A DNA stretch of 46,955 nucleotides. It comes from a virus. The notes under the pieces were generated by a model, which worked only from the letters and a program-made list of their open reading frames with translations, did no database searches and had not been told where the DNA came from. The position numbers and the translations under genes are program-made. Position 1 is the first letter of the stretch; every line of letters begins with the position of its first letter. The stretch lies in UHGV virus genome UHGV-2105699. One strand, written 5' to 3'. This document shows positions 3,445-33,451 of the stretch, piece by piece.

Positions 3445-3879
3445 ATGAAACTATCGCAACGCGGCATTGATTTAATTAAACAATTCGAGGGTTACAGCTC
3501 GAAGGCATATCCAGACCCAGCCACTGGCGGAGCGCCGTGGACTATCGGTTACGGTACAACCAAAGGCGTTAAGCCAGGCATGGTTATCACCGCACAGCAA
3601 GCGGAAAAGATGCTGCGTGACGACGTAGCGAAATTTGAAAGCGGCGTCTCGTCACTCATCACCGCCCCAACAACTCAGGGCCAGTTTGATGCAATGGTGT
3701 CGCTGGCCTATAACATCGGGCTTGGTAACTTTGGCAAATCAACTCTGCTGAAAAAGCATAACGCCCGCTGCTACACCTGCGCCGCCGACCAGTTCCGGGT
3801 GTGGAATCGTGCTAATGGCAAGGTCATGAACGGACTCACCAAGCGCCGCGCCGCTGAACGTCAGGTCTACATGTCATGA
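3445..3879 (+). CDS. endolysin, T4-lysozyme-like (glycoside hydrolase family 24)
   Basis: Catalytic triad spacing E..8 aa..D..5 aa..T in FEGYSSKAYPDPATGGAPWTIGYGTT; SD GGAGGT upstream. Confidence 0.9.
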   Translation: MKLSQRGIDLIKQFEGYSSKAYPDPATGGAPWTIGYGTTKGVKPGMVITAQQAEKMLRDDVAKFESGVSSLITAPTTQGQFDAMVSLAYNIGLGNFGKSTLLKKHNARCYTCAADQFRVWNRANGKVMNGLTKRRAAERQVYMS

Positions 3880-4109
3880 AGCGCCTAAGCAACTGGCTTA
3901 TCGGCATTTGGGCGTCATTCTGCTCGCTGATTCAGCTGTGGCCTGATGCTATGGTTCATGTGTGGGCTTTCATGCCTGAAGACTTAAAGTCTGCCATTCC
4001 GCCGATTGCGGTCAAGGCGATCAGCTACAGCATCCTTCTTGCCTCGCTGTTTGGGAAAATGCACGGCATGAAGAAAGAGATTAAGGCGCTGAAAAATGAC
4101 CAGAATTAA
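3876..4109 (+). CDS. putative holin / small membrane protein (2 TM)
   Basis: 77 aa, hydrophobic segments NWLIGIWASFCSLIQLW and IAVKAISYSILLASLFG, charged C-terminus; start overlaps endolysin stop (ATGA); lies between endolysin and spanins. Confidence 0.4.
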   Translation: MKRLSNWLIGIWASFCSLIQLWPDAMVHVWAFMPEDLKSAIPPIAVKAISYSILLASLFGKMHGMKKEIKALKNDQN

Positions 4110-4476
4110 GTTAATTCTAATCGCCATAGGCGTCGCGGTAATCATTGCTGTATCTGGTTATGGCGCTGGATACCTGAAAGGATGGTATGCGCACAGCGAA
4201 AAGGTTAATCGTGACGCAGAAAAGCGCAGGCAGGCGGCGCAAAGCAAGCAGGCTAAGTCCACGACGCAATCTCAGCAAGTGCGCGCTGTGACTGAAACCA
4301 AATACAAAACCATTTACCGCGACGTGGTGAAATATGTCTCCGACCCGAATCGTAATGTGTGTGTTTTTGATGACAACTATCAGCGGTTGCGCCAACAATC
4401 CCTCGACGCCGACGCCTCCATCGGCAGAGATGCTGGGTCAGGTGTGCGAATTGTCGAAAGTGGCGCCAAAAAATAG
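4096..4476 (+). CDS. i-spanin (Rz-like): N-terminal TM anchor plus periplasmic coiled coil
   Basis: MTRIKLILIAIGVAVIIAVSGYGAGY TM segment followed by charged helical region (RDAEKRRQAAQSKQAKS...). Confidence 0.65.
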   Translation: MTRIKLILIAIGVAVIIAVSGYGAGYLKGWYAHSEKVNRDAEKRRQAAQSKQAKSTTQSQQVRAVTETKYKTIYRDVVKYVSDPNRNVCVFDDNYQRLRQQSLDADASIGRDAGSGVRIVESGAKK

Positions 4477-4579
4477 CGACGAAAGTATCGTTATGGAGAA
4501 CCAGAACACGGAGTGCGCCACAAAAAGAAAGATGACGATTTACGACTGGCAGGATTGGTATCGTGATAACTTCCAATAA
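4334..4579 (+). CDS. o-spanin (Rz1-like outer-membrane lipoprotein), embedded out of frame in and extending beyond the i-spanin gene
   Basis: Lipoprotein signal with lipobox ISG|C (MSPTRIVMCVFLMTTISGC), Pro-rich mature N-terminus (ANNPSTPTPPS); starts inside Rz in another frame. Confidence 0.65.
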   Translation: MSPTRIVMCVFLMTTISGCANNPSTPTPPSAEMLGQVCELSKVAPKNSDESIVMENQNTECATKRKMTIYDWQDWYRDNFQ

Positions 4580-4581
4580 AA

Positions 4582-4606
4582 AAGCCCCTTTCGGGGCTTT
4601 TCTTTA
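4582..4606 (+). terminator. rho-independent terminator after lysis cassette
   Basis: GCCCC-tttc-GGGGC hairpin followed by TTTTCTTT. Confidence 0.7.
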
Positions 4607-4625
4607 ACCTTCTCCGTAGCCAATG

Positions 4626-4841
4626 TCACGCATAAAGCGCCTCCATTTTGTACCCAAACATTACTGCGTTCTGATGCTCAACACTACCAGCAAACGCCAG
4701 ATATCGGCGCCCACGATTGCTGGTGATGATGTATGCTGCTGGTTCTTCAAACCTCGGAGTGTGATAATCGCGCCGGGCAGGTTCGTGGAACTCCACCGTG
4801 TCAATTTCGATGCGTGGCACGGGGTTTTGTATTGGCATCAC
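4626..4841 (-). CDS. hypothetical protein (71 aa), last gene of leftward cassette
   Basis: Start overlaps stop of 4838..5311; competing + ORF 4623..4883 judged less likely because a leftward operon of overlapping genes runs 5961->4626. Confidence 0.35.
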   Translation of the reverse strand: MMPIQNPVPRIEIDTVEFHEPARRDYHTPRFEEPAAYIITSNRGRRYLAFAGSVEHQNAVMFGYKMEALYA

Positions 4842-5311
4842 TTTACCTCCCCATTCAGTTCATTAACAATTAATGTTGCATAGCCAGCAATGTCTTTCCA
4901 GCTATCGTCATATGTCGGGTCGCCATTCAGGATTCGACCGATTTTATGCTGAATCATGTCGAGCGCCTCCTTCTGGCTCGCCGTCAGGTTATTCCATCCG
5001 TCAACGTCGCGCATGGTGTCTTTCAGTGACTGCATGATATCGGCGCCGTCTTTGAATTTGCCATAGCGGCTGCCGCGCTCGGTGATGAGGGCTTCTGTGG
5101 AGCTGGTGCGCCCATTCAAGTCATCATCAGTTACTGGCTCACGATGCGCGACAACAATATCGCCAGCCTTTTCGATATCCTTATCTCGACCTGCATAATC
5201 CGCGCTGAGGTAGTATATTTTGCCACTGGTTGCTGATTTCACAACAAGAACGGCATCTTCATGACCATTAAAATAATCAGCACTTCCCTTCAGGTATTTG
5301 TATTTCATCAC
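4838..5311 (-). CDS. hypothetical protein (157 aa)
   Basis: Coupled ORF in leftward operon; no firm motif (EALITERGSRYGKFKD region noted, unassigned). Confidence 0.5.
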   Translation of the reverse strand: MMKYKYLKGSADYFNGHEDAVLVVKSATSGKIYYLSADYAGRDKDIEKAGDIVVAHREPVTDDDLNGRTSSTEALITERGSRYGKFKDGADIMQSLKDTMRDVDGWNNLTASQKEALDMIQHKIGRILNGDPTYDDSWKDIAGYATLIVNELNGEVK

Positions 5312-5505
5312 TCATTCACCCCACTCTCTTCAATTATTTTAATTTCAATCTGAGCAACGCGAGCATCAGGCCCATTGTCACACTCAATCAGATGCGCCCA
5401 TGCGTCGATGCGGTTGTTGAACACCCGGAAGCTGACGCCATGCTTTTCCTTGTCGGTCATAGCACTCACTCCACTATTATCAAGGACTATGAACTTCATC
5501 ATCAC
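5308..5505 (-). CDS. hypothetical protein (65 aa)
   Basis: Overlapping start/stop in leftward operon. Confidence 0.45.
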   Translation of the reverse strand: MMMKFIVLDNSGVSAMTDKEKHGVSFRVFNNRIDAWAHLIECDNGPDARVAQIEIKIIEESGVNE

Positions 5506-5539
5506 TTCACCTCCGATCTTTTATGGCGCTTGCATACAC

Positions 5540-5764
5540 TTATCGCCAGTTGCTCTCGTCTGCAATTTCTTTAATGAAAAACGCTAAATCACTCAGTTGC
5601 TCCATCTGAATCCTGCTAATCACTCTTCCGTATCTGTATTTGTTGCCATTCGCTACCCACTCCCACACTAACGTTAATGAGCAGTTAGATGTATCGAATT
5701 GATAAAAGAATGCCTTATCTTCCTTCCAGCATGAATCAAAAATAGTGCTGTCTATAATCATCAC
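5540..5764 (-). CDS. hypothetical protein (74 aa)
   Basis: Leftward operon member. Confidence 0.45.
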   Translation of the reverse strand: MMIIDSTIFDSCWKEDKAFFYQFDTSNCSLTLVWEWVANGNKYRYGRVISRIQMEQLSDLAFFIKEIADESNWR

Positions 5765-5961
5765 TCCACCCTCAATGTAACTTTGTTTTTCTCATCCACG
5801 CTGAAGTGTTCACGCACAAACGCATACATTTCTTCAGCGCTCCATTCCCGCATTGCTACATAGCAATGCGCGTAATATCTGACATCTCGCAGGCTTAACG
5901 GCTGGCGCTTAGCGATAATCTCAGTCAATACTTCCAGTGGTTCTTTGCGTTGTCTCGCCAT
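5761..5961 (-). CDS. hypothetical protein (66 aa), first gene of leftward operon
   Basis: SD CAGGAGAG upstream; preceded by motif site at 5986-6003. Confidence 0.45.
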   Translation of the reverse strand: MARQRKEPLEVLTEIIAKRQPLSLRDVRYYAHCYVAMREWSAEEMYAFVREHFSVDEKNKVTLRVE

Positions 5962-5984
5962 TGTCGCTCTCCTGTGAAAATCAT

Positions 5985-6036
5985 CTTGACGAATCTACGT
6001 CAATTAGTCAATACTAGATGCTGTAGATTATAACAT
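5985..6036. promoter_or_regulatory. divergent regulatory region: palindromic cTTGACGaatctaCGTCAAt (5985-6004) plus inverted partial copy ctgTAGATT and TATAAC -10 (6029-6034) upstream of HNH gene
   Basis: TTGACG at 5986-5991 and CGTCAA at 5998-6003 form an inverted repeat around the conserved AATCTA core. Confidence 0.4.
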
Positions 6037-18808: not shown

Positions 18809-19097
18809 TCTCCTCTCTGATTGCAGTATACAGTTGTCGACGCAACATACACAGCGCTCCGTGTGGCATAAACTGTGAAACCATTCCGTCGAATATCTTC
18901 CGGTTTAATTTATTATCAATTCTCGGCCTGATTGCAGACCAGCATGACCTGATTGCACGATTAACCGGACGGCGGTCGAGCATTGCTATTCGCGCAGCTA
19001 GCTCAATAGTCACGATCGCGTCAAGATACTGCTCGCAGGAGTAGCGTGATTCGTCATCCTCTTCCGTGGTTTTTATGGTAGTTAAGTTTTCTTTCAT
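18792..19097 (-). CDS. hypothetical protein (101 aa)
   Basis: Overlaps HNH gene end; part of AT-rich leftward cassette. Confidence 0.4.
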   Translation of the reverse strand: MKENLTTIKTTEEDDESRYSCEQYLDAIVTIELAARIAMLDRRPVNRAIRSCWSAIRPRIDNKLNRKIFDGMVSQFMPHGALCMLRRQLYTAIREENDDDS

Positions 19098-19602
19098 ATA
19101 TCAATCTCGCCTTAACGGCATCGTCAAAGTTTACGTAGTAACCTATTGTTTTCTTTTTACCATCAATTGATATTGAAGACTTCCATTTCCCAAACCTATT
19201 AATAAAACAAACGCCACTAACGCCGCTAGTATTGTTTTTTTGCCTTGGCCTGTTTTTCATATTCTCAGACATTGACACATTTCTTAGATTTTCTATCCTA
19301 TTATTAGTCCCATCACCATCAATGTGGTCGATGTAATCAGGCCAATAACCATAATTCATAAACCATATTACCCTATGAGCTTTGTAAACCTTGCCATCTA
19401 TCCTTATGTTAATGTAAGAAGTCTGATGATCTTTGCTTTTTGACTCCCAACCAGCTTTGCTACCTTTAACCTTCCTGGCGTATCTATCAACATTCCATAC
19501 GAGATAACCATCATTATGGTATGTGAACAGTTCATTAAGCCTATCAAGCGATACGTCTGTTAACATTAAACACTCAATGCACCATCGAATACTATGTAAC
19601 AT
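19054..19602 (-). CDS. HNH homing endonuclease with AP2 domain (copy 2 of 3)
   Basis: YKAHRVIWFMNYG...IDHIDGDGTNNRIENLRNV and AP2-like SGVSGVCFINRFGKWKSSISIDGKKKTIGYYVNFDDAVKARLIYE; AT-rich codon usage relative to neighbours. Confidence 0.8.
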   Translation of the reverse strand: MLHSIRWCIECLMLTDVSLDRLNELFTYHNDGYLVWNVDRYARKVKGSKAGWESKSKDHQTSYINIRIDGKVYKAHRVIWFMNYGYWPDYIDHIDGDGTNNRIENLRNVSMSENMKNRPRQKNNTSGVSGVCFINRFGKWKSSISIDGKKKTIGYYVNFDDAVKARLIYERKLNYHKNHGRG

Positions 19603-23700: not shown

Positions 23701-24004
23701 GTATCAGGTCGGCGAGAACAACCTCCCTGAAATCTTCCAGGCCAGCAATGGCAATCAGTACATGATACCCGGGGACAACGGAAAGGTTATCAGCAATAAA
23801 GACCTTACCGGCGGCGGCAGTGGTATCATTATTTATAATAATGTCACCAATAACAGCAGCGGAGCAACGGCCTCATCAACAGCAAGAGATAATGGTGACG
23901 GCTCTGTTACAATTGAGACTATCGTTGCCGACATAGAAAATGGCGGCCCTATTTCTCAGGCTATTACCAGCAATACCACTGCAACCAGAAGGGCAACAGA
24001 ATAA
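20711..24004 (+). CDS. tail tape measure protein
   Basis: 1097 aa, long Ala/Gln/Glu-rich coiled-coil regions and Gly/Ala-rich hydrophobic C-terminal segment; SD AAAGGAG. Confidence 0.85.
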   Translation: MAEEVGGIVYEVGIDTSQLAAGSREIESMLNDLSGNMGRLEASVNRTERSISSMEGTMSSLTGVAKGLLAALSVQQVGAYAQAWQDMSNKLSNAVRDSVPPFETLADVTNRVFDIAQKTRSGLDATATLYARLERSTRSYGVSVEDLTRLTTIINQGFVVSGASAEEASNAIIQLAQGMASGALRGDEFNSVNEQGNRLMIALADSLGVGIGELRNMAAQGKLTTDVIVNGLLSQGDSIGREFAKTTSTISQSLEIAGNNVARFFGENATVKTGVKIFSDSVILASENIQALGTALTVVAGIMGSRYVGALAMSTAAKISDIAASRQQLIAENQQAQSALVAANSAQRKALADKEAALSSLALAQAEYNVAKGSAAEMLALDALVAAKSRASAASLSLAQAENAQATASARAASAASAASVGIGLARGALSLIGGPAGAAMLAAGAIFYFWQKAQQAREEAIRFADSLDKVNASMKAMNNTQLRGVIADANISISAQKDAVRNLQSEVDALRERYLSFTPAAQEVAESLGQGSQFASDQERVLNELNKKSRDLADAQDKLARTQDTAAEASRTLTNNMLTSMGVHDGLIEKGSTLERVQGAVARAFGLTADEINRANQAGQNFNPKSLQVSAPTKEADKIILSLEEQNQLLKIQDERQREVTKARLEAQKVTDNPNQIARAAELAGQIYDLNEAEKAREKAQNNSQLSAKKAATEQENIANKLEQLRQKSLLTAESTRELSREQSILAAQQSLGKGATQEQINLAGQYAAKAWDNANALKAQAEAEKKRAEAVKGFAALKSQTSPMFAVETNYQKDLAALNAYAVAYPKKIAEVEQARAAIEEQYRKQRLDAMWQEWSQQNAATQAAAAAFDAFGQTASNALTGVLTGSMSVSEALQSIGSNVLNAVINSFVQMGVEWLKSVIMGQAGMAAASAATAAQAAGIAAAMAPAAAMTSLATGGANAVPAQAGIVSTIGVAKAMSVAGALKNGGPAQAGSMYQVGENNLPEIFQASNGNQYMIPGDNGKVISNKDLTGGGSGIIIYNNVTNNSSGATASSTARDNGDGSVTIETIVADIENGGPISQAITSNTTATRRATE

Positions 24005-24474
24005 TGGCTATAGCTTACCCATCATGGCTGCCGCTTGCGCAGCGTGCCAGCAAGAACATGGCGACTCAAACACCATTCCGCAGCGATCAGCCTGCGGTTG
24101 GGGCGCCAATATTTCAAAAGTTAACGACCGATGTTGCAGTAACATGGAGTTTGACATGGGTTTTCACGCTCAGGCAGGAGCGGGCATTTATGCAGTGGTT
24201 GAGAAGCCCAAATTATCTCAACAAGTGCAATGAATGGTTCACGATGGATATCGATCTTGGTGGCAGCGGATTACAGAATCAGACTTTGCACTTTACTGAT
24301 TACCCCGTACAGACAAGTATCAATGGCGGCATCGTTACATGGACTGGAAATGTCATCTGTAAAACTCTCAATAACTCCATGGATGAATTTGATGATGTGC
24401 TTGTTGAGCTTGATGAGAGATGGTATTCATGGCTAGATGAAGTCGTTAACAGGGATTTGCCGGAGTATCCATAA
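24004..24474 (+). CDS. minor tail protein (lambda M-like position)
   Basis: 156 aa directly following TMP with overlapping stop/start. Confidence 0.5.
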
Positions 24475-27793: not shown

Positions 27794-27822
27794 TACAATA
27801 GGGCAATTAATGATTATGGAGA

Positions 27823-29988
27823 TTGCAGCCGATGGCTACTACCCCAACTAACAAGCCAATTCCTTCTGAAGACCCGCGCGACCTCAAGTTTAACGCCGGT
27901 AAGATTGATGAAGAGGTTAACGGAAGTTCTGATTACTACACCGACCGATTTGACGCACAGAGGCTGACTAATACCGGCAGGAATCACCAGTTTCAGACAG
28001 CACAAGATGAGCGTGAGGCAGAATTTGTTGCGTCACAGGTGGATAAAGAAGCGCGTTTTCAGCAATTCCTCTTAAATTCTGGTTATCAGTTTTTGGGAGA
28101 TTATGAAAATGGGCCATATACAATAACGGCGCTTAACCAGGTAATTCGTTATCAGGGTGAATTCTGGCGCTTAAACGCATCAACAACACCTCCATATACA
28201 ACTACAGGGATTGATAACACCTCTTGGGCGGTAGATGTGACCCATCTTGTAAGCGTTGGTGATGCAAAATTAAGACAGGATTTAAGTTCAACTACTTTGC
28301 CTGGTTTATCATTAGTCGGTCTTTCTGGTAATGGTAATTTAAACCATCTGCTAGGCAATCATACCTCTCCTGAGGCGTGGGGAGTGGTGCCAAATTCAGA
28401 AGCATCAGCTCATGCAAACTCTAGAAAGATGTTTGACATGTTTGAAAGTTTAAGATCGAAAGGCGGCGGTGTCGTATTCTTTACTCCTGGTAGAACATAC
28501 TGGATTGACTTTATTCAGTTCGTACCAAGTAACGTTGTTATAATTGGCTACGGCGCTACATTAAAGCAAATAAACCCTTTATCAATGTATGGACGCGGTG
28601 GTTTTGTGTTTGGTAGCAGTAGGGAATGGAACTATCAAAAAGCTAAAACGGCATATCTTGCAAACTCCTACCCTGCATCTGTATCTGATTCATCAATGCC
28701 TGAGTTGTCTTTAGGTTCATATTTAAGGGATAACCAATCATATTTACAGTGTGAAAGATGTACTGTGTATGGTTTGCGTATGGAAACAAAATTTACAGAT
28801 TCTACATATTGGGGTGGTTATGCATTTAATACAGTAAACGCGCAACACATCAGATTTTACGATGTTAAAGGAAGTGGTTGGACACAGCTATTCAATTTCG
28901 GTAATGATAGTTCCGCATCATCACCATCTTGTGATGATGTATATGCATTCAACTCAACAGTAGAAAGCGCAGATCTTGTTCGTTCTTACTATGCGATTGG
29001 TTTTATAGCCAACTCTACAAACTGTGGCTTTGATACAGCTGTTCTTCTAAAACCAATGACAGTTGATAGCATTAATGGGTCTGGTGCAGCAACAAACTAC
29101 ACTGAAAACTGCGTAATCAGAAATATAAACATACCAGATTTAGGGTTAACTTCATCATCTGAAGGTGTTTTATTAAATAACTCTAAAGGTTGTTTAATAG
29201 AAAATATTGATATCAGGAATTGTAAAAACGTAGTTAGTACATACTATACCGTCGCTTCATACAATGACACTGCAAAACCTAATATTTTAAGGAATATTAG
29301 TGGTCAAGGCGTTAACATTATAGCAATCAGGTCTAAATATGCACACATTGAATCATTTGAAGTAGTAGGTACATACACGAATGAAGTTCAATTTGCAAAC
29401 AACAATGCATCAGGCAATACCATAAATAAAAAACCAAAATCAATTGGTTTTGGTGGGACTAACTTACAGTCATGGTTTTTAACAAATAATACGGTAAAAG
29501 GATGGTCGCGAAAATATTTTTATATTCGGCCATCCGAAATTTTGTTGAACGATAAAGTAGACACTTTTTCATGGGATTATAATAAACTTGTCGCAACAAA
29601 ATCAGGAGTAAATCTTTACTTTATGTGGCGAGTTCCTGACGATATAAATGCAATTGATGATATTCGCGCTTTTATTAGATTTAACACTGCCGTAGATCAA
29701 GATGCTTCTGTTGCTGGATCTACAGTAGAGGCAAGTTTGATACAAATGGTCGCTTTCGATGGTAACATTGGCGAAACACCATATGTTGCTTTTTCAAACA
29801 GCAAGGTTGCAACAGCGGGTGTAGAAGACACAACGGTAGTAACGCAAATGGGTAGCAATGTACCAGGTTTGGTTTATATGGATGATACTACACATGGTTT
29901 ATCCTATAGCTGGTATGTGCTGTTTAAAATGACAAATAATGTCAACAATAACTACATGAAAGAAATCAGAGTAGCGGGGTATAACTAA
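27823..29988 (+). CDS. tail fiber / tailspike: conserved GC-normal N-terminal anchor (about 27823-28050) plus AT-rich beta-helix-like C-terminal receptor-binding/depolymerase-like domain
   Basis: 721 aa; sharp drop in GC after ~28050; repetitive N/I/V-rich beta-helix-like rungs (NCVIRNINIPDLGLTSSSEGVLLNNSKGCLIENIDIRNCKNVV). Confidence 0.6.
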   Translation: MQPMATTPTNKPIPSEDPRDLKFNAGKIDEEVNGSSDYYTDRFDAQRLTNTGRNHQFQTAQDEREAEFVASQVDKEARFQQFLLNSGYQFLGDYENGPYTITALNQVIRYQGEFWRLNASTTPPYTTTGIDNTSWAVDVTHLVSVGDAKLRQDLSSTTLPGLSLVGLSGNGNLNHLLGNHTSPEAWGVVPNSEASAHANSRKMFDMFESLRSKGGGVVFFTPGRTYWIDFIQFVPSNVVIIGYGATLKQINPLSMYGRGGFVFGSSREWNYQKAKTAYLANSYPASVSDSSMPELSLGSYLRDNQSYLQCERCTVYGLRMETKFTDSTYWGGYAFNTVNAQHIRFYDVKGSGWTQLFNFGNDSSASSPSCDDVYAFNSTVESADLVRSYYAIGFIANSTNCGFDTAVLLKPMTVDSINGSGAATNYTENCVIRNINIPDLGLTSSSEGVLLNNSKGCLIENIDIRNCKNVVSTYYTVASYNDTAKPNILRNISGQGVNIIAIRSKYAHIESFEVVGTYTNEVQFANNNASGNTINKKPKSIGFGGTNLQSWFLTNNTVKGWSRKYFYIRPSEILLNDKVDTFSWDYNKLVATKSGVNLYFMWRVPDDINAIDDIRAFIRFNTAVDQDASVAGSTVEASLIQMVAFDGNIGETPYVAFSNSKVATAGVEDTTVVTQMGSNVPGLVYMDDTTHGLSYSWYVLFKMTNNVNNNYMKEIRVAGYN

Positions 29989-30257
29989 TGACCGGTTCAG
30001 AATCAAGAAAAGCACAAGATCTCTTTTTTGGTATTATTGATTATTACGCTAATCTTTCAGGTACAGACATAACTGAAGATCAGTTGAAACAACGCGATGA
30101 AATAATAAAAAGTGGATCTATAGAATGTGATGATTCTTTAGATAGTGAAATCTTAGATTTGCAAGATCAATTTCTTGCAAAAAAAGAAAGTAACATCATA
30201 AATAAAGATCAAATAGCGATAGTTGAAAAAGCACTATCGCTATTAAAAAAATCTTAA
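29988..30257 (+). CDS. hypothetical acidic protein (89 aa), AT-rich, co-acquired with fiber distal domain
   Basis: Start overlaps fiber stop (ATGA); composition matches the AT-rich fiber C-terminus. Confidence 0.35.
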   Translation: MTGSESRKAQDLFFGIIDYYANLSGTDITEDQLKQRDEIIKSGSIECDDSLDSEILDLQDQFLAKKESNIINKDQIAIVEKALSLLKKS

Positions 30258-30273
30258 TTATCATACTGGTAGT

Positions 30274-30310
30274 AACGTGCATCTCATTTGATGCACGTTA
30301 TATTTATTTA
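30274..30310. terminator. terminator between convergent tail-fiber and SSB transcription units
   Basis: AACGTGCATC (30274-30283) pairs with GATGCACGTT (30290-30299), loop tcattt, followed by ATATTTATTT. Confidence 0.7.
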
Positions 30311-30316
30311 AATCAC

Positions 30317-30820
30317 TCAGAATGGGATATCATCATCAAAATCCATCGGCGGTTCGTTTGACGGTGGTTTTGACGTGTTTGATGGTTGCTGAGGTTTACC
30401 CAATCCTGATTGCTGATTACTTCCTGACTTTTGCCGCTGCTGTGACTGTTGGTTTCCATTATCACTTGATTTACCACCAATCATTTGCATAACGCCGTTC
30501 ATAGGCTGCAAGACGATTTCAGTAGTGTATTTTTCAACACCGCTTTGATCTGTCCATTTGCGAGTACGTAATTTTCCTTCTACATACACCTGAGAGCCTT
30601 TGCGCAGGTATTCGCCAGCTACCTCTGCCAGCTTTCCGAAGATAACAACGCGATGCCATTCGGTTTGCTCTTTCTTCTCACCTGTGGCCTTGTCATTCCA
30701 CTGTTCTGATGTTGCCAGAGAAAGATTGCACACAGCGCCGCCGGAAGGCATATATTTAACTTCCGGGTCTTGTCCGAGAGTGCCCAAAATGATTACTTTG
30801 TTGATTCCTCGAGATGCCAT
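30317..30820 (-). CDS. ssb: single-stranded DNA-binding protein
   Basis: OB-fold SSB signature ([17 protein letters not shown]...[14 protein letters not shown]) and acidic C-terminal tail ending DDDIPF. Confidence 0.9.
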
Positions 30821-30829
30821 AATTTACCC

Positions 30830-31492
30830 TTAAAAGTTTTCGATGTTCTGTTGAGATGTTGATGGCTTCTCTTCGTTTGCAGATGACGTAGGCGCATCTG
30901 CTTTCTGGAGTTTGGCCGGGTTGAAATCACTGCCGCCAGCAATGAATTTTGCTTTCATTTCCTGGTATGCGCCGACGATTACGCGAGTGGCAGCGTCATC
31001 ACCACGGAATGATTTGTATTCTTCACCATAAATAGCAGTAAGCTCATCCATGTTTGCTGCTGAACGAATGAGTGCAGCTGCATCTTTAGGAGACTTCCGC
31101 GCCGCATTGCCATCGTCATCAGCCTGCGCAATACCGAACATAGACGCAATAGAGTAGCGGCGCGCATACGTCATTGCTGAGCCATAACCCTGCGCGTCTT
31201 TCTTGGCAACTGGCATTGGCATGACTGAAGACATGTATTCACCAGACTCATGCATGATTGTTGTTTCCAGCTTCAAAACATCAACCGTATCGCTCTCAAT
31301 GGCGTTCTGGATGATGATAAGACCGTTAGCCTCAAGCGCTGGCCTGATGGCATTCAGGAATGACTCAAGGTTAGCATAATTGCTTTTAAGGTGCGGGTTT
31401 TGCGCATTCTTTTTAGCGCTGCTACTCATTACCTTGCGCGCCTCTACCAGAGCCTTAATCAGGTTTGCTTTCTGTTCTGAAAATTTCATCAC
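30830..31492 (-). CDS. ERF-family single-strand annealing recombinase
   Basis: GSAMTYARRYSIASMFGIAQADDDGN matches the conserved ERF core (GSA.TYARRY ... DDD). Confidence 0.6.
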   Translation of the reverse strand: MMKFSEQKANLIKALVEARKVMSSSAKKNAQNPHLKSNYANLESFLNAIRPALEANGLIIIQNAIESDTVDVLKLETTIMHESGEYMSSVMPMPVAKKDAQGYGSAMTYARRYSIASMFGIAQADDDGNAARKSPKDAAALIRSAANMDELTAIYGEEYKSFRGDDAATRVIVGAYQEMKAKFIAGGSDFNPAKLQKADAPTSSANEEKPSTSQQNIENF

Positions 31493-32521: not shown

Positions 32522-32930
32522 CAAGCCCAAAATAGAATAACGTCGCCCTTTTTAACTCCTCAAGACCATAAGAAATGGCGCCAAAGTGACCCTCTGCAAT
32601 GGCGCACTCCAGAACCTCAATCTGCGATGGCGATACTTTTGATTTTGTCTTATCACGCCTCTTCAGCTCAATCAGGCCGCATTTATGATTAATGCCGTGA
32701 GTTAGTATCACATTGTCGCTTACTCCGCTCCTGACGCCCATTTTGCGGCGTTTCTCGACGAATTGAGGGCCGCTCTTTGTTCCAGTCTCGTTAGGCACAT
32801 GAAACCACAGGACTTCAGGGAATCGGTATTGCATCCACAGACCATAGGCCATCTGGTCAGTTTCCTCCCTTGGACACTCCCCGCGATAACCACTATCAAA
32901 TACCCATATTCCACTATCAAGCTGCTTCAA
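32514..32930 (-). CDS. VRR-NUC domain nuclease
   Basis: 138 aa with VRR-NUC-type core (GVSDNVILTHG...GLIELKRRDKTKSKVSPSQIEVLEC). Confidence 0.6.
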   Translation of the reverse strand: MKQLDSGIWVFDSGYRGECPREETDQMAYGLWMQYRFPEVLWFHVPNETGTKSGPQFVEKRRKMGVRSGVSDNVILTHGINHKCGLIELKRRDKTKSKVSPSQIEVLECAIAEGHFGAISYGLEELKRATLFYFGLDE

Positions 32931-33451
32931 TTTGTTCTCCTACCGTGGTTTTTATGGAATCCATGCTTAACCTCAGCTTCCGCTCTTGCTTTTGCCGCAT
33001 TATTAAAATCAACAAATAATCCAAGATAAATGTTTTTACCTTTGACTTTTATTTGAGCCATCCATTTCTTCCTGTCTGAGTTCCATGTCACACCAGTAAC
33101 TCCAGAGGAGTTATTGGTTGCGATACCTTGATTCATGCCATTCCCAAGATTATTAACTAGCCTGAGATTTTCTATTCGATTATCATCACGAACATGATTG
33201 ATGTGATCAATCTGCATACCTCCTTGTATTGGCTCGTTATGCATTTCCCATATGATTCTATGTGCACGATAAAGACCCCTGCCAATTCTGACCATTACAT
33301 AACCAAACCTTGGGCGCTTGTTGCCTGCCGCTTTATATGCAAACCTAGTATTCCAAGTAGCTGCTGACTTCTTCGTCTTAAAAGTTGAAACATTTCTCTC
33401 CTTCCATATCAGAAGGCCATTTTCATAGTAAAAATAATCATGCCAGTTCAT
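32927..33451 (-). CDS. HNH homing endonuclease with AP2 domain (copy 3 of 3)
   Basis: YRAHRIIWEMHNEP...IDHINHVRDDNRIENLRLVNN and AP2-like SGVTGVTWNSDRKKWMAQIKVKGKNIYLGLFVDFNNAAKARAEAE; ~80% nt identity to copy 1 over the HNH core. Confidence 0.8.
   Translation of the reverse strand: MNWHDYFYYENGLLIWKERNVSTFKTKKSAATWNTRFAYKAAGNKRPRFGYVMVRIGRGLYRAHRIIWEMHNEPIQGGMQIDHINHVRDDNRIENLRLVNNLGNGMNQGIATNNSSGVTGVTWNSDRKKWMAQIKVKGKNIYLGLFVDFNNAAKARAEAEVKHGFHKNHGRRTN

What the first reader, a model, noticed from the sequence alone, without database searches (positions are those of the whole stretch)
28050..30260. Mosaic tailspike: GC-normal N-terminal anchor fused to an AT-rich beta-helix-like receptor-binding/depolymerase-like domain with an AT-rich satellite ORF
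Within 27823..29988 the first ~75 codons have genome-typical composition. From about 28050 the sequence becomes strikingly AT-rich and stays so through the overlapping 89-aa ORF 29988..30257, up to the terminator at 30274-30310. The AT-rich part encodes repetitive Asn/Ile/Val-rich rungs typical of right-handed beta-helix tailspikes/depolymerases. The pattern indicates a horizontally exchanged host-range cartridge (distal fiber domain plus a possible chaperone or accessory gene) grafted onto a conserved virion-attachment domain.
Basis: partly seen in the sequence, partly recalled or inferred. Interest (0 to 1): 0.55.

Follow-up and report, generated by a model that had tools for sequence, protein, structure and literature searches.

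The report
Swappable capsule-cutting tailspike cartridge
This Klebsiella-type phage carries a tailspike whose virion-docking front end is fixed, while its sugar-cutting back end and a small partner gene form an AT-rich unit swapped between unrelated phages; this is a well-known way for phages to change host range, and here the partner gene always travels with the enzyme.

Summary
Window 28285-30316 has GC 0.356 against 0.45-0.47 in the flanks, and it is the lowest-GC 2.2 kb of the window. The recombination junction is nt 28284 (codon 151 from the likely ATG at 27832, motif GDAKLRQDL), not about 28050. Lesser junctions lie at 27874 and 27980, and the right edge is at 30276-30317.

- **Anchor:** Residues 1-151 are 80-100% identical in genus relatives. 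They match the Shigella phage Sf11 gp13 anchor, and the published contact residues are conserved on both partners.
- **Distal part:** Residues 152-718 are unrelated in most relatives. They are 36-78% identical to tailspikes of myoviruses, podoviruses and prophages. The model is a high-confidence right-handed beta-helix plus a beta-sandwich.
- **ORF89:** It is real, translationally coupled, acidic and four-helical, with no known fold. In 30 of 30 loci it directly follows a homologue of this distal domain.
- **Prophage switch:** In Klebsiella prophages the same two-gene unit is an invertible segment driven by a Mu Gin-like invertase. Its crossover site encodes the same junction motif.

Mosaic receptor-binding proteins are textbook. 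The obligate partner gene and the invertase link are the modestly new parts. ORF89's function, probably a cognate assembly factor, is inferred only.

The parts
24004..24474 (+). Distal tail protein (156 aa), the docking partner of the tailspike anchor
   Evidence: E 3.7e-88 to Sf11 gp17 residues 4-155 (PDB 9OCC). Adaptor-helix residues E129, E136 and E147 are conserved and E152 is replaced by Asp. Their role is taken from PMC12724387.
27818..27821 (+). GGAG ribosome-binding site, 10 nt upstream of ATG 27832
   Evidence: Read directly from the sequence.
27832..29988 (+). Tailspike gene, 718 aa from the ATG (721 aa if TTG 27823 is used)
   Evidence: ORF list. PHROG and PDB matches begin at the ATG-encoded Met. 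98.9% identical to the pIS4-A and pYD38-A proteins.
27832..27981 (+). Anchor part 1 (aa 1-50): N-terminal helices that dock on the distal tail protein
   Evidence: Aligns with Sf11 gp13 residues 1-50. Arg16 and Lys19 are conserved. Genus relatives are 86-100% identical here. Lesser breakpoints lie at 27874 and 27980.
27982..28284 (+). Anchor part 2 (aa 51-151): long helix plus a small beta domain, ending in GDAKLRQDL
   Evidence: 68-88% identical in genus relatives. It is separately swapped in VR6602 and L021, where identity is 55-81% here but 100% from 28300 onward.
28258..28284 (+). Junction motif GDAKLRQDL, the main recombination breakpoint and start of the structural hinge
   Evidence: Nucleotide homology to 7 relatives ends at 28265-28284. 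L151 is at least 90% conserved across all 42 aligned homologues. The homologous codons form the invertase crossover site in prophages. The model's pLDDT dips to about 61 over aa 141-170. The Sf11 hinge starts at residue 162.
28285..30316 (+). The exchangeable AT-rich cartridge as a whole (GC 0.356)
   Evidence: It is absent or replaced in 10 relatives. Homology resumes at 30276-30317. It is 99-100% identical to pIS4-A while the backbone is 90-96% identical.
28285..28458 (+). Hinge and linker, then the capping helix (aa 152-209)
   Evidence: Secondary structure and lower confidence in the AlphaFold2 model. Cross-family homology begins between aa 158 and 226.
28459..29466 (+). Right-handed parallel beta-helix (aa 210-545), the putative polysaccharide-binding and cleaving domain
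   Evidence: pLDDT 90-98. Foldseek probability 1.0 to solved tailspikes and depolymerases. D226, E265, D300, D359, D381, E425, E444 and D479 are conserved in at least 90% of 23 homologues. More distant homologues carry PF12708.
29467..29985 (+). C-terminal beta-sandwich region (aa 546-718)
   Evidence: All-beta and high confidence in the model. It is separately divergent: 25-37% identity in homologues whose beta-helix is about 50% identical.
29988..30257 (+). ORF89: an 89-aa acidic (pI 4.4) four-helix protein, the cognate partner gene of the cartridge
   Evidence: TAATG stop/start overlap. phrog_19895, E 4e-42. The family has invariant M1, G3, D52, Q59 and L86. Model pLDDT is 87. It lies directly downstream of a distal-domain homologue in 30 of 30 loci.
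30272..30311 (+). Intrinsic-terminator-like hairpin with T-rich tail that closes the late tail operon
   Evidence: 12-pair stem, 6-nt loop and T-rich tail. Some relatives share sequence from 30276 or 30303 onward.
30317..30820 (-). Convergent ssb gene; its stop codon marks the right edge of the variable region
   Evidence: Homology to 5 relatives resumes exactly at 30317. Relatives annotate it as ssb.

Best explanation
The gene at 27832-29988 encodes a modular tailspike of a Roufvirus-like siphophage.

Anchor: residues 1-151 are the lineage's fixed anchor. By homology with Shigella phage Sf11, three N-terminal helices of a trimer bundle with one adaptor helix of the distal tail protein (window 24004-24474). 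This would place six spikes around the tail tip. That step is inferred from homology and conserved contact residues.

Junction: the anchor ends in GDAKLRQDL, which starts a flexible hinge and is the shared splice point.

Cartridge: everything from nt 28285 to about 30316 is a horizontally acquired, AT-rich unit. It comprises a hinge and linker, a right-handed beta-helix that most likely binds and cleaves a Klebsiella-type surface polysaccharide, a C-terminal beta-sandwich, the translationally coupled ORF89, and the operon terminator. The fold is shown; the activity is inferred. The unit was exchanged recently within the genus, and over longer times between sipho-, myo- and podoviruses and prophages.

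ORF89: it is a cognate accessory of the distal domain, most likely an assembly or maturation factor acting in trans. This is inferred from strict linkage, translational coupling and co-inversion.

Prophage counterpart: in temperate Klebsiella relatives the same two-gene unit is flipped by a Mu Gin-like invertase. The crossover site lies in the codons of the same junction motif. The window itself has neither the site nor an invertase, so here exchange must occur by ordinary recombination at conserved flanks.
For: Composition:
- Cartridge GC is 0.356 against 0.45-0.47 in the flanks. GC3 is 0.28 against 0.45.

Breakpoints:
- Left breakpoints are at 28265-28284 in 7 relatives, 27980 in 1 and 27874 in 2. 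The right edge is at 30276-30317.
- The same cartridge, at 99-100% identity, sits on anchor alleles that are 100%, 91% and 81% identical.
- The cartridge is 99-100% identical to pIS4-A while the backbone is 90-96% identical.
- Per-region protein identities show the mosaic.

Anchor:
- E 1.2e-21 to Sf11 gp13 residues 1-155, with R16 and K19 conserved.
- The window's distal tail protein and both hub proteins match 9OCC chains at E 4e-88, 3e-83 and 0.
- Adaptor-helix glutamates are conserved. The mechanism is described in PMC12724387.

Fold:
- AlphaFold2 pLDDT 88 overall. Foldseek matches solved tailspikes and depolymerases.

ORF89:
- Homologues lie directly after the homologous spike in JD001, KPV811, KWBSE43-6, T7-like contigs and prophages.
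- Linkage holds in 30 of 30 loci.

Invertase switch in prophages:
- 25-31 nt inverted repeats with 12-2-12 layout.
- The site encodes LR(Q/S/A)NLGS, and the silent segment is 43% identical to window aa 158-717.
- The invertase matches Mu Gin at E 1e-70.
- L015 and L031 are the same prophage in opposite orientations.
Against: - The query protein itself matches no Pfam or NCBIfam model, so catalytic class and substrate are unknown.
- ORF89 has no sequence or fold similarity to any known chaperone.
- ORF89 divergence tracks the linker and first half of the beta-helix (Spearman 0.57-0.85). It does not track the adjacent C-terminal domain (about 0.05), which is not what a C-terminal folding chaperone would predict.
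- Cartridges without a small ORF do not carry an intramolecular chaperone domain instead.
- The GC fall begins about 100-200 nt before the main homology junction.
- The donor of the AT-rich copy was not identified.
Confidence: 0.8

Rival explanations
1. ORF89 is a hitch-hiking 'moron', for example an anti-defence or superinfection-exclusion protein. It travels with the spike only because it sits between the spike gene and the terminator, and it has no role in spike biology.
For: - It is small, acidic and helical, as many phage counter-defence proteins are.
- It has no similarity to any chaperone.
- Other cartridge types carry unrelated small acidic ORFs at the same position.
Against: - Linkage holds in 30 of 30 loci, across siphovirus, myovirus, podovirus and prophage backgrounds with otherwise unrelated neighbours.
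- The stop and start codons overlap or abut in every lineage examined.
- It lies inside the invertible segment, so it is expressed only together with its own distal domain.
- No copy was found away from a spike.
Confidence: 0.15
2. ORF89 is a transient inhibitor or groove-occupying 'safety cap' of the enzyme, an acidic substrate mimic. It would keep the depolymerase inactive, or shield its binding groove, inside the cell until assembly.
For: - ORF89 divergence follows the linker and first half of the beta-helix rather than the C-terminal domain.
- It is strongly acidic, like uronic-acid capsules.
Against: - The correlation is not corrected for phylogeny and rests on 15 lineages.
- There is no structural precedent.
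- To my knowledge many depolymerases are produced as active recombinant proteins without such a partner.
Confidence: 0.1
3. The AT-richness reflects the amino-acid make-up or local selection on a resident gene, not horizontal acquisition.
For: - The distal part is richer in Asn, Ile, Val and Ser than the anchor.
- Homologous cartridges in 13 other backgrounds are also at or below local GC.
Against: - The largest drop is at third codon positions, 0.44 to 0.23-0.30.
- Homology breakpoints coincide with the compositional edges.
- Relatives carry wholly unrelated sequence in the same slot.
- Identity steps from 55-93% to 100% at 28300.
Confidence: 0.03
4. The distal domain targets a polysaccharide other than capsule (O-antigen or exopolysaccharide), or binds without cleaving.
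For: - The best fold matches include the O-antigen-specific spikes of HK620 and CBA120.
- No catalytic-family model matches.
- The anchor homologue Sf11 gp13 is an O-antigen spike.
Against: - Sequence homologues are overwhelmingly from Klebsiella phages and prophages, where such spikes are capsule-specific.
- Several acidic residues are conserved in at least 90% of homologues.
- More distant homologues carry the pectate-lyase-type domain.
Confidence: 0.15

Closest known systems
Modular depolymerase receptor-binding proteins of Klebsiella phages (Latka et al. 2019, PMC6872550; KP36-type 'anchor + depolymerase')
   Same: - A conserved N-terminal anchor with a swapped central and distal enzymatic domain.
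- The same gene position, between the tail-tip genes and ssb.
- Homologous distal domains shared across phage families.
   Different: - The anchor is of the Sf11 gp13 type rather than the KP36 type.
- There is no C-terminal intramolecular chaperone domain.
- A separate small partner gene always accompanies this distal domain.
Shigella siphophage Sf11 tailspike gp13 on distal tail protein gp17 (PDB 9OCC; PMC12724387)
   Same: - The N-terminal 150 residues, the LRxDL motif followed by a hinge, the distal tail protein and both hub proteins are homologous.
- The published salt-bridge residues are conserved.
   Different: - The Sf11 distal part is a P22/Sf6-like O-antigen endorhamnosidase unrelated to this one.
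- The window's distal tail protein lacks the 300-residue C-terminal appendage of gp17.
- No partner ORF is described for Sf11.
Phage Mu G segment and P1 C segment (Sc-Sv-U / U'-S'v with Gin or Cin invertase)
   Same: - In prophage relatives (L015-L017, L031) a Gin homologue (E 1e-70) lies next to two opposed 'variable distal part + small ORF' units.
- These units are bounded by 12-2-12 inverted repeats placed at the constant/variable junction of the fibre gene.
- Both orientations are observed.
- ORF89 occupies the position of U.
   Different: - The window has no invertase and no site.
- The switched proteins are beta-helix tailspikes, not fibres.
- ORF89 is unrelated to Mu U or the Tfa proteins.
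Tail fibre assembly chaperones (lambda Tfa, Mu U, P2 G, T4 gp38; Pfam Caudo_TAP)
   Same: A small gene immediately downstream of the receptor-binding gene, co-transferred with its distal part.
   Different: - No sequence match and no fold match: ORF89 is an all-helical 10-kDa protein.
- Its divergence does not follow the spike's C-terminal domain.

Membership tests
Right-handed beta-helix tailspike / polysaccharide depolymerase | Parallel right-handed beta-helix fold | tested here: met
   AlphaFold2 pLDDT 90-98 over aa 210-545. Foldseek probability 1.0 to CBA120 TSP3 and TSP4, HK620, Depo32, DpK2 and KP32gp38.
Right-handed beta-helix tailspike / polysaccharide depolymerase | Match to a curated beta-helix or pectate-lyase sequence model (PF12708, PF13229) | tested here: not met
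   No Pfam or NCBIfam match for the window protein at E <= 0.1. Only more distant homologues (P0037, P0048, P0104 and the L018 spike) carry PF12708.
Right-handed beta-helix tailspike / polysaccharide depolymerase | Conserved catalytic carboxylates in the groove | tested here: inconclusive
   D226, E265, D300, D359, D381, E425, E444 and D479 are conserved in at least 90% of 23 homologues. Their spatial placement and role were not assessed.
Right-handed beta-helix tailspike / polysaccharide depolymerase | Homotrimer with capsule-degrading activity | not testable with these tools
   Only a monomer model was possible. Activity needs biochemistry.
Sf11 gp13-type siphophage tailspike anchor | Homologous N-terminal domain with the DTP-contacting residues Arg16 and Lys19 | tested here: met
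   E 1.2e-21 over residues 1-175 against gp13 residues 1-155. R16 and K19 are identical. Their roles are from PMC12724387.
Sf11 gp13-type siphophage tailspike anchor | Cognate distal tail protein with an acidic adaptor helix | tested here: met
   Window 24004-24474 matches gp17 residues 4-155 at E 3.7e-88. E129, E136 and E147 are conserved and E152 is replaced by Asp.
Sf11 gp13-type siphophage tailspike anchor | Physical four-helix bundle on the virion | not testable with these tools
   Needs cryo-EM of this phage.
Gin/Cin/Hin-type invertible tail-fibre segment | Serine DNA invertase gene next to the fibre genes | tested here: not met
   tblastn of the prophage invertase finds no hit in the window. 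The feature is met in prophage relatives L015-L017, L029 and L031.
Gin/Cin/Hin-type invertible tail-fibre segment | Inverted 26-bp crossover sites at the constant/variable junction | tested here: not met
   No match in the window with up to 3 mismatches. The junction codons differ at DNA level although the peptide motif is shared. The sites are present in L015-L017 and L030.
Tail fibre assembly chaperone (Tfa / Mu U / Caudo_TAP), for ORF89 | Sequence or fold membership | tested here: not met
   No Pfam, NCBIfam or PDB sequence match. No Foldseek match in PDB. The only BFVD match is its own family member.
Tail fibre assembly chaperone (Tfa / Mu U / Caudo_TAP), for ORF89 | Position immediately downstream of, and co-inherited with, the distal receptor-binding part | tested here: met
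   True in 30 of 30 loci. TAATG overlap. It is co-inverted in prophages.
Tail fibre assembly chaperone (Tfa / Mu U / Caudo_TAP), for ORF89 | Binds the spike and is required for its folding or assembly | not testable with these tools
   Needs co-expression, pull-down or knockout experiments.
Endosialidase-type intramolecular chaperone (Peptidase_S74) | C-terminal PF13884 domain | tested here: not met
   Absent from the window spike and from eight other cartridge types of the genus.

The most novel reading that the evidence does not exclude
ORF89 (phrog_19895) would define a previously unrecognised class of trans-acting partner proteins that a particular lineage of beta-helix depolymerases needs. 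The 'LRxDL hinge to terminator' unit would then be a universal plug-in for capsule specificity. Lytic phages would move it by homologous exchange, and temperate Klebsiella phages would phase-vary it with a Gin-like invertase whose crossover site is written into the hinge codons. If so, engineering or predicting host range for these spikes would require moving both genes, and prophage capsule tropism would be switchable within a clone.
Probability: 0.35. Interest if true: 0.65.

Novelty: new member of a known kind. Interest (0 to 1): 0.45.

Why it matters
Exchange of host-range cartridges is the main way Klebsiella phages change capsule specificity. Three results here have practical value:
- A nucleotide-precise splice point (after LRQDL, nt 28284) that nature uses repeatedly. 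It is a ready-made junction for spike engineering on a siphophage chassis whose docking geometry is now known from Sf11.
- Evidence that this enzyme lineage never travels without its 10-kDa partner. That should be respected in recombinant expression and in host-range prediction.
- A link between cartridge exchange in lytic phages and invertase-driven switching of the same unit in prophages.

None of this overturns current understanding.

Tried and rejected
- **Family scans of both proteins:** Pfam and NCBIfam found nothing.
- **ORF89 against solved structures:** the PDB sequence search gave only a chance coiled-coil hit at E 0.5. Foldseek against PDB and BFVD gave nothing beyond its own family.
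- **Cis versus trans chaperone idea:** I tested whether cartridges lacking a small ORF carry an intramolecular chaperone domain instead. They do not, so I dropped the idea.
- **Small ORFs of other cartridges:** those of DP01, F14, Tbat1_6 and the second prophage cassette are not detectable members of the ORF89 family.
- **Invertase machinery in the window:** no gix-like site and no invertase. The window is therefore not itself a switch.
- **Genome collection scan:** A single-protein query returned one irrelevant weak hit.
- **Capsule type:** no paper mentions VR6602. DepoCatalog and the temperate-phage RBP paper do not mention JD001, KpV811 or inversions. The target K type stays unknown.
- **Internal signals:** promoter-like sites in the region are no more frequent than in shuffled sequence.
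Full report
**Observation**

The whole window has GC 0.473. The flagged stretch 28050-30260 has GC 0.363, the lowest value of any 2.2-kb stretch in the window. The sliding mean is 0.471 with sd 0.032, and the minimum starts at 28101. ORF89 alone has GC 0.293. Third-codon-position GC in the long ORF falls from 0.44 to 0.23-0.30, so the shift is in codon choice and is not only a by-product of protein composition.

Both ORFs exist as described. The likely start of the long ORF is ATG 27832, 10 nt after GGAG at 27818-27821, rather than TTG 27823. All family and structure matches begin at that Met. The stop of the long ORF and the start of ORF89 overlap as TAATG. A 12-pair hairpin with a T-rich tail lies at 30272-30311.

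**Where the window comes from**

The region is 97.5% identical to Aeromonas phage pIS4-A (genus Roufvirus) and Vibrio phage pYD38-A. It is 88-93% identical, over its flanks only, to some 70 Klebsiella siphophages. A published analysis places these phages in one proposed subfamily (PMC11769527).

**Breakpoints**

I compared the window by blastn with twelve relatives.
- In phages with a different distal domain, homology ends at 28265-28284 in seven: ZC2, SCNJ1-C, DP01, MK54, KlebP_265, F14 and Tbat1_6.
- It ends at 27980 in VLCpiS13e and at 27874 in KpV2811 and BUCT541.
- It resumes at 30276, 30303 or 30317. Position 30317 is the last base of the stop codon of the convergent ssb gene.

Nt 28284 is the last base of codon 151, giving ...VSVGDAKLRQDL | SSTTLPG.... 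Maximum-likelihood compositional change points are 28177 for GC3, 28475 for total GC on the left, and 30343 on the right. They bracket these junctions.

The variable segment 28285-30316 has GC 0.356. The other ten cartridge types in the same slot range from 0.41 to 0.47.

**Recent exchange**

- Against pIS4-A, the cartridge is 99-100% identical while the surrounding backbone is 90-96% identical.
- In VR6602 and in metagenomic contigs L021 and L024, identity is 55-93% over 27900-28299 and jumps to 97-100% from 28300 onward.
- The same cartridge therefore sits on anchor alleles that are 100%, 91% and 81% identical at protein level.
- VR6602 is also 82-92% identical over 28900-29800 but about 99% over 29800-30300, which shows finer mosaicism inside the cartridge.

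**Protein-level mosaic**

In an alignment of 42 homologues:
- Genus relatives are 80-100% identical over aa 1-151 and 9-22% identical beyond.
- Proteins that share the distal part are 50-78% identical over aa 152-718. Their N-termini are unrelated (3-16%) or only distantly related (31-56%).
- Several have a beta-helix about 50% identical but a C-terminal region only 25-37% identical.
- Apart from Met1, the only residue conserved in at least 90% of all rows in the first 200 positions is L151, at the junction.

PHROG matches split the same way: aa 107-721 (numbered from the TTG start) against one family, and aa 4-150 against three others.

**The anchor**

Residues 1-175 match the tailspike gp13 of Shigella siphophage Sf11 (PDB 9OCC) at E 1.2e-21. 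In that structure, gp13 residues 4-59 from three chains bundle with one adaptor helix of the distal tail protein gp17. Salt bridges involve spike Arg16 and Lys19 and gp17 Glu129, Glu136, Glu147 and Glu152. A hinge begins at residue 162 (PMC12724387).

The window conserves Arg16 and Lys19. Its 156-aa distal tail protein (24004-24474) matches gp17 residues 4-155 at E 3.7e-88. Three of the four glutamates are kept and the fourth is Asp. Both hub proteins also match, at E 2.5e-83 and E 0. In the AlphaFold2 model, confidence dips to about 61 over residues 141-170, which fits a hinge just after LRQDL. Docking as in Sf11 is thus well supported by homology, though it has not been observed for this phage.

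**The distal part**

The model has mean pLDDT 88 and values above 90 for nearly all of residues 180-718. It shows a capping helix, a long run of short strands (aa 210-545) and an all-beta C-terminal region.

Foldseek against the PDB gives probability 1.0 to CBA120 TSP4 and TSP3, the HK620 tailspike, and the Klebsiella depolymerases Depo32, DpK2 and KP32gp38. The beta-helix prediction is therefore confirmed.

The query itself matches no curated sequence model. More distant homologues carry PF12708. Eight acidic residues are conserved in at least 90% of 23 homologues. Which of them are catalytic, whether the enzyme is a hydrolase or a lyase, and which capsule type it cleaves were not determined.

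**ORF89**

It belongs to phrog_19895, a family of unknown function. An exhaustive profile-free search of 1.84 billion representative proteins found only about eleven related clusters. A profile search found 25 clusters, all from Klebsiella or enterobacterial phages and prophages.

The family is well conserved, with invariant M1, G3, D52, Q59 and L86. The protein is acidic (pI 4.4). It is predicted with pLDDT 87 to be a compact four-helix protein. It has no structural neighbour in the PDB, and the only neighbour in BFVD is its own relative in phage KWBSE43-6.

Context is decisive. A homologue lies directly after the homologous spike gene in:
- Jedunavirus JD001 (myovirus);
- Drulisvirus KPV811 (podovirus);
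- a T7-like contig;
- the large E. coli myophage KWBSE43-6;
- several prophages.

Across 30 loci, every ORF89 homologue is preceded on the same strand, within a few bases, by a homologue of the window's distal domain at 36-99% identity, whatever the N-terminus. Genus relatives with other distal domains lack it. Some of them carry unrelated small acidic ORFs instead.

**The invertase link**

In Klebsiella prophages L015, L016 and L017 the layout is as follows. A start-less 563-576-aa ORF, 43% identical to window aa 158-717, is followed by its ORF89 homologue. This pair lies head-to-head with an expressed tailspike gene and another small ORF. A Resolvase/HTH_7 gene sits alongside. That gene matches phage Mu Gin at E 1e-70 over its full length.

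Each locus has one pair of 25-31 nt inverted repeats, TTCGCGTAAACC-TG-GGTTCAAACGAA, in the 12-2-12 layout I recall for hix and gix sites. One arm lies at the first codons of the silent segment. The other lies inside the expressed gene, 115-250 codons from its start. In frame, the site encodes ...LR(Q/S/A)NLGS(D/N)..., the counterpart of the window's ...LRQDLSST....

L015 and L031 have flanks 99.7-99.9% identical but the segment in opposite orientations, joined at the site. Both switch states therefore exist. The unit that the invertase flips is the same unit that is exchanged in the window: the distal part from the LRxxL motif onward plus the small ORF.

The window has no such site, even allowing 3 mismatches, and no invertase. 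It is not a switch itself.

Inversions of prophage tail-fibre regions are known in general (PMC5903667). One was seen next to an invertase in a K. pneumoniae prophage during experimental evolution (bioRxiv 10.64898/2025.12.17.694638). A recent survey of receptor-binding proteins in temperate Klebsiella phages does not mention inversion.

**What ORF89 does**

The best-supported reading is a cognate accessory of the distal domain, probably an assembly or maturation factor. The grounds are strict linkage, translational coupling and co-inversion, and ORF89 sits where Mu U sits.

Against a classical C-terminal folding chaperone: ORF89 divergence follows the linker and first half of the beta-helix (Spearman 0.57-0.85) and not the adjacent C-terminal region (about 0.05) across 15 lineages. 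This comparison is not phylogenetically corrected. An inhibitor or groove-cap role, or a hitch-hiking moron, cannot be excluded.

**Origin of the AT-richness**

Homologous cartridges in 13 other backgrounds have GC3 from 0.33 to 0.63. All are at or below their local GC. The window-type copy is the most AT-rich, with GC3 0.28. This fits a family moving between genomes of different composition, with this copy least adjusted to its host genome. The donor is unknown.

**Comparison and verdict**

Anchor-plus-swappable-depolymerase architecture, with homologous enzymatic domains shared across phage families and sometimes paired with a cognate chaperone, is the established model for Klebsiella phages (PMC6872550). 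This locus is a clear new example.

Three features add to that model:
- the anchor can now be tied to a solved docking geometry;
- the splice point is defined to the nucleotide;
- an uncharacterised partner gene always accompanies this enzyme lineage, and prophages flip the same two-gene unit with a Gin-like invertase.

Interest is moderate.

Noticed in passing
window 19054-19602 (-) and 32927-33451 (-): The other marked low-GC islands of the window (GC 0.37-0.38) are free-standing HNH_3 homing-endonuclease ORFs. The second also has an AP2-like domain. They are probably mobile insertions.
   Followed up: partly
window 30830-31492 (-), junction near 30928: There is a second module swap just right of ssb. 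The window carries an ERF-family annealing protein, as do ZC2 and KpV2811. pIS4-A, VLCpiS13e, F14 and MK54 carry a 345-aa P-loop protein in the same slot. Nucleotide homology to pIS4-A stops at 30928.
   Followed up: partly
L001 (NC_042037 pIS4-A) 3824-5989: RefSeq annotates only the C-terminal 516 aa of the tailspike. tblastn shows an uninterrupted 721-aa match, so the anchor-encoding part is unannotated in that record.
   Followed up: partly
L001 and the pYD38-A records: pIS4-A and pYD38-A are filed as Aeromonas and Vibrio phages. They nevertheless carry a tail tip and a spike cartridge otherwise found only in Klebsiella or enterobacterial phages and prophages, so the recorded hosts may deserve re-examination.
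   Followed up: no
L015 2655-7871; L016; L017; L031: Klebsiella prophages carry a Gin-like invertase switch that alternates two tailspike distal domains, each with its own small ORF. L015 and L031 are the same prophage caught in both orientations. The crossover site encodes the LRxNLGS hinge motif.
   Followed up: yes
L008 4325-4498; L013 4521-4700; L014 4472-4651; L015 5295-5552 (-); L017 5288-5539 (-): Other cartridge types also end with a small ORF of 57-85 aa. These ORFs are unrelated in sequence to ORF89 and mostly to each other (only the L015 and L016 copies, and the DP01 and KlebP_265 copies, are identical pairs). All are acidic, with pI 4.0-5.0. A small acidic partner may be a recurring feature of spike cartridges.
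   Followed up: partly
L004 3833-6286 (KpV2811 tail fibre): The K1-type cartridge of KpV2811 and BUCT541 diverges from the window after only about 14 codons. It ends in a GDSL/SGNH-type esterase domain rather than a plain beta-sandwich.
   Followed up: no
window 28900-29800 compared with L002 (VR6602): Inside the cartridge, VR6602 is 82-92% identical over the second half of the beta-helix and the C-terminal region. It is about 99-100% identical on either side, including ORF89. This indicates sub-cartridge recombination.
   Followed up: partly
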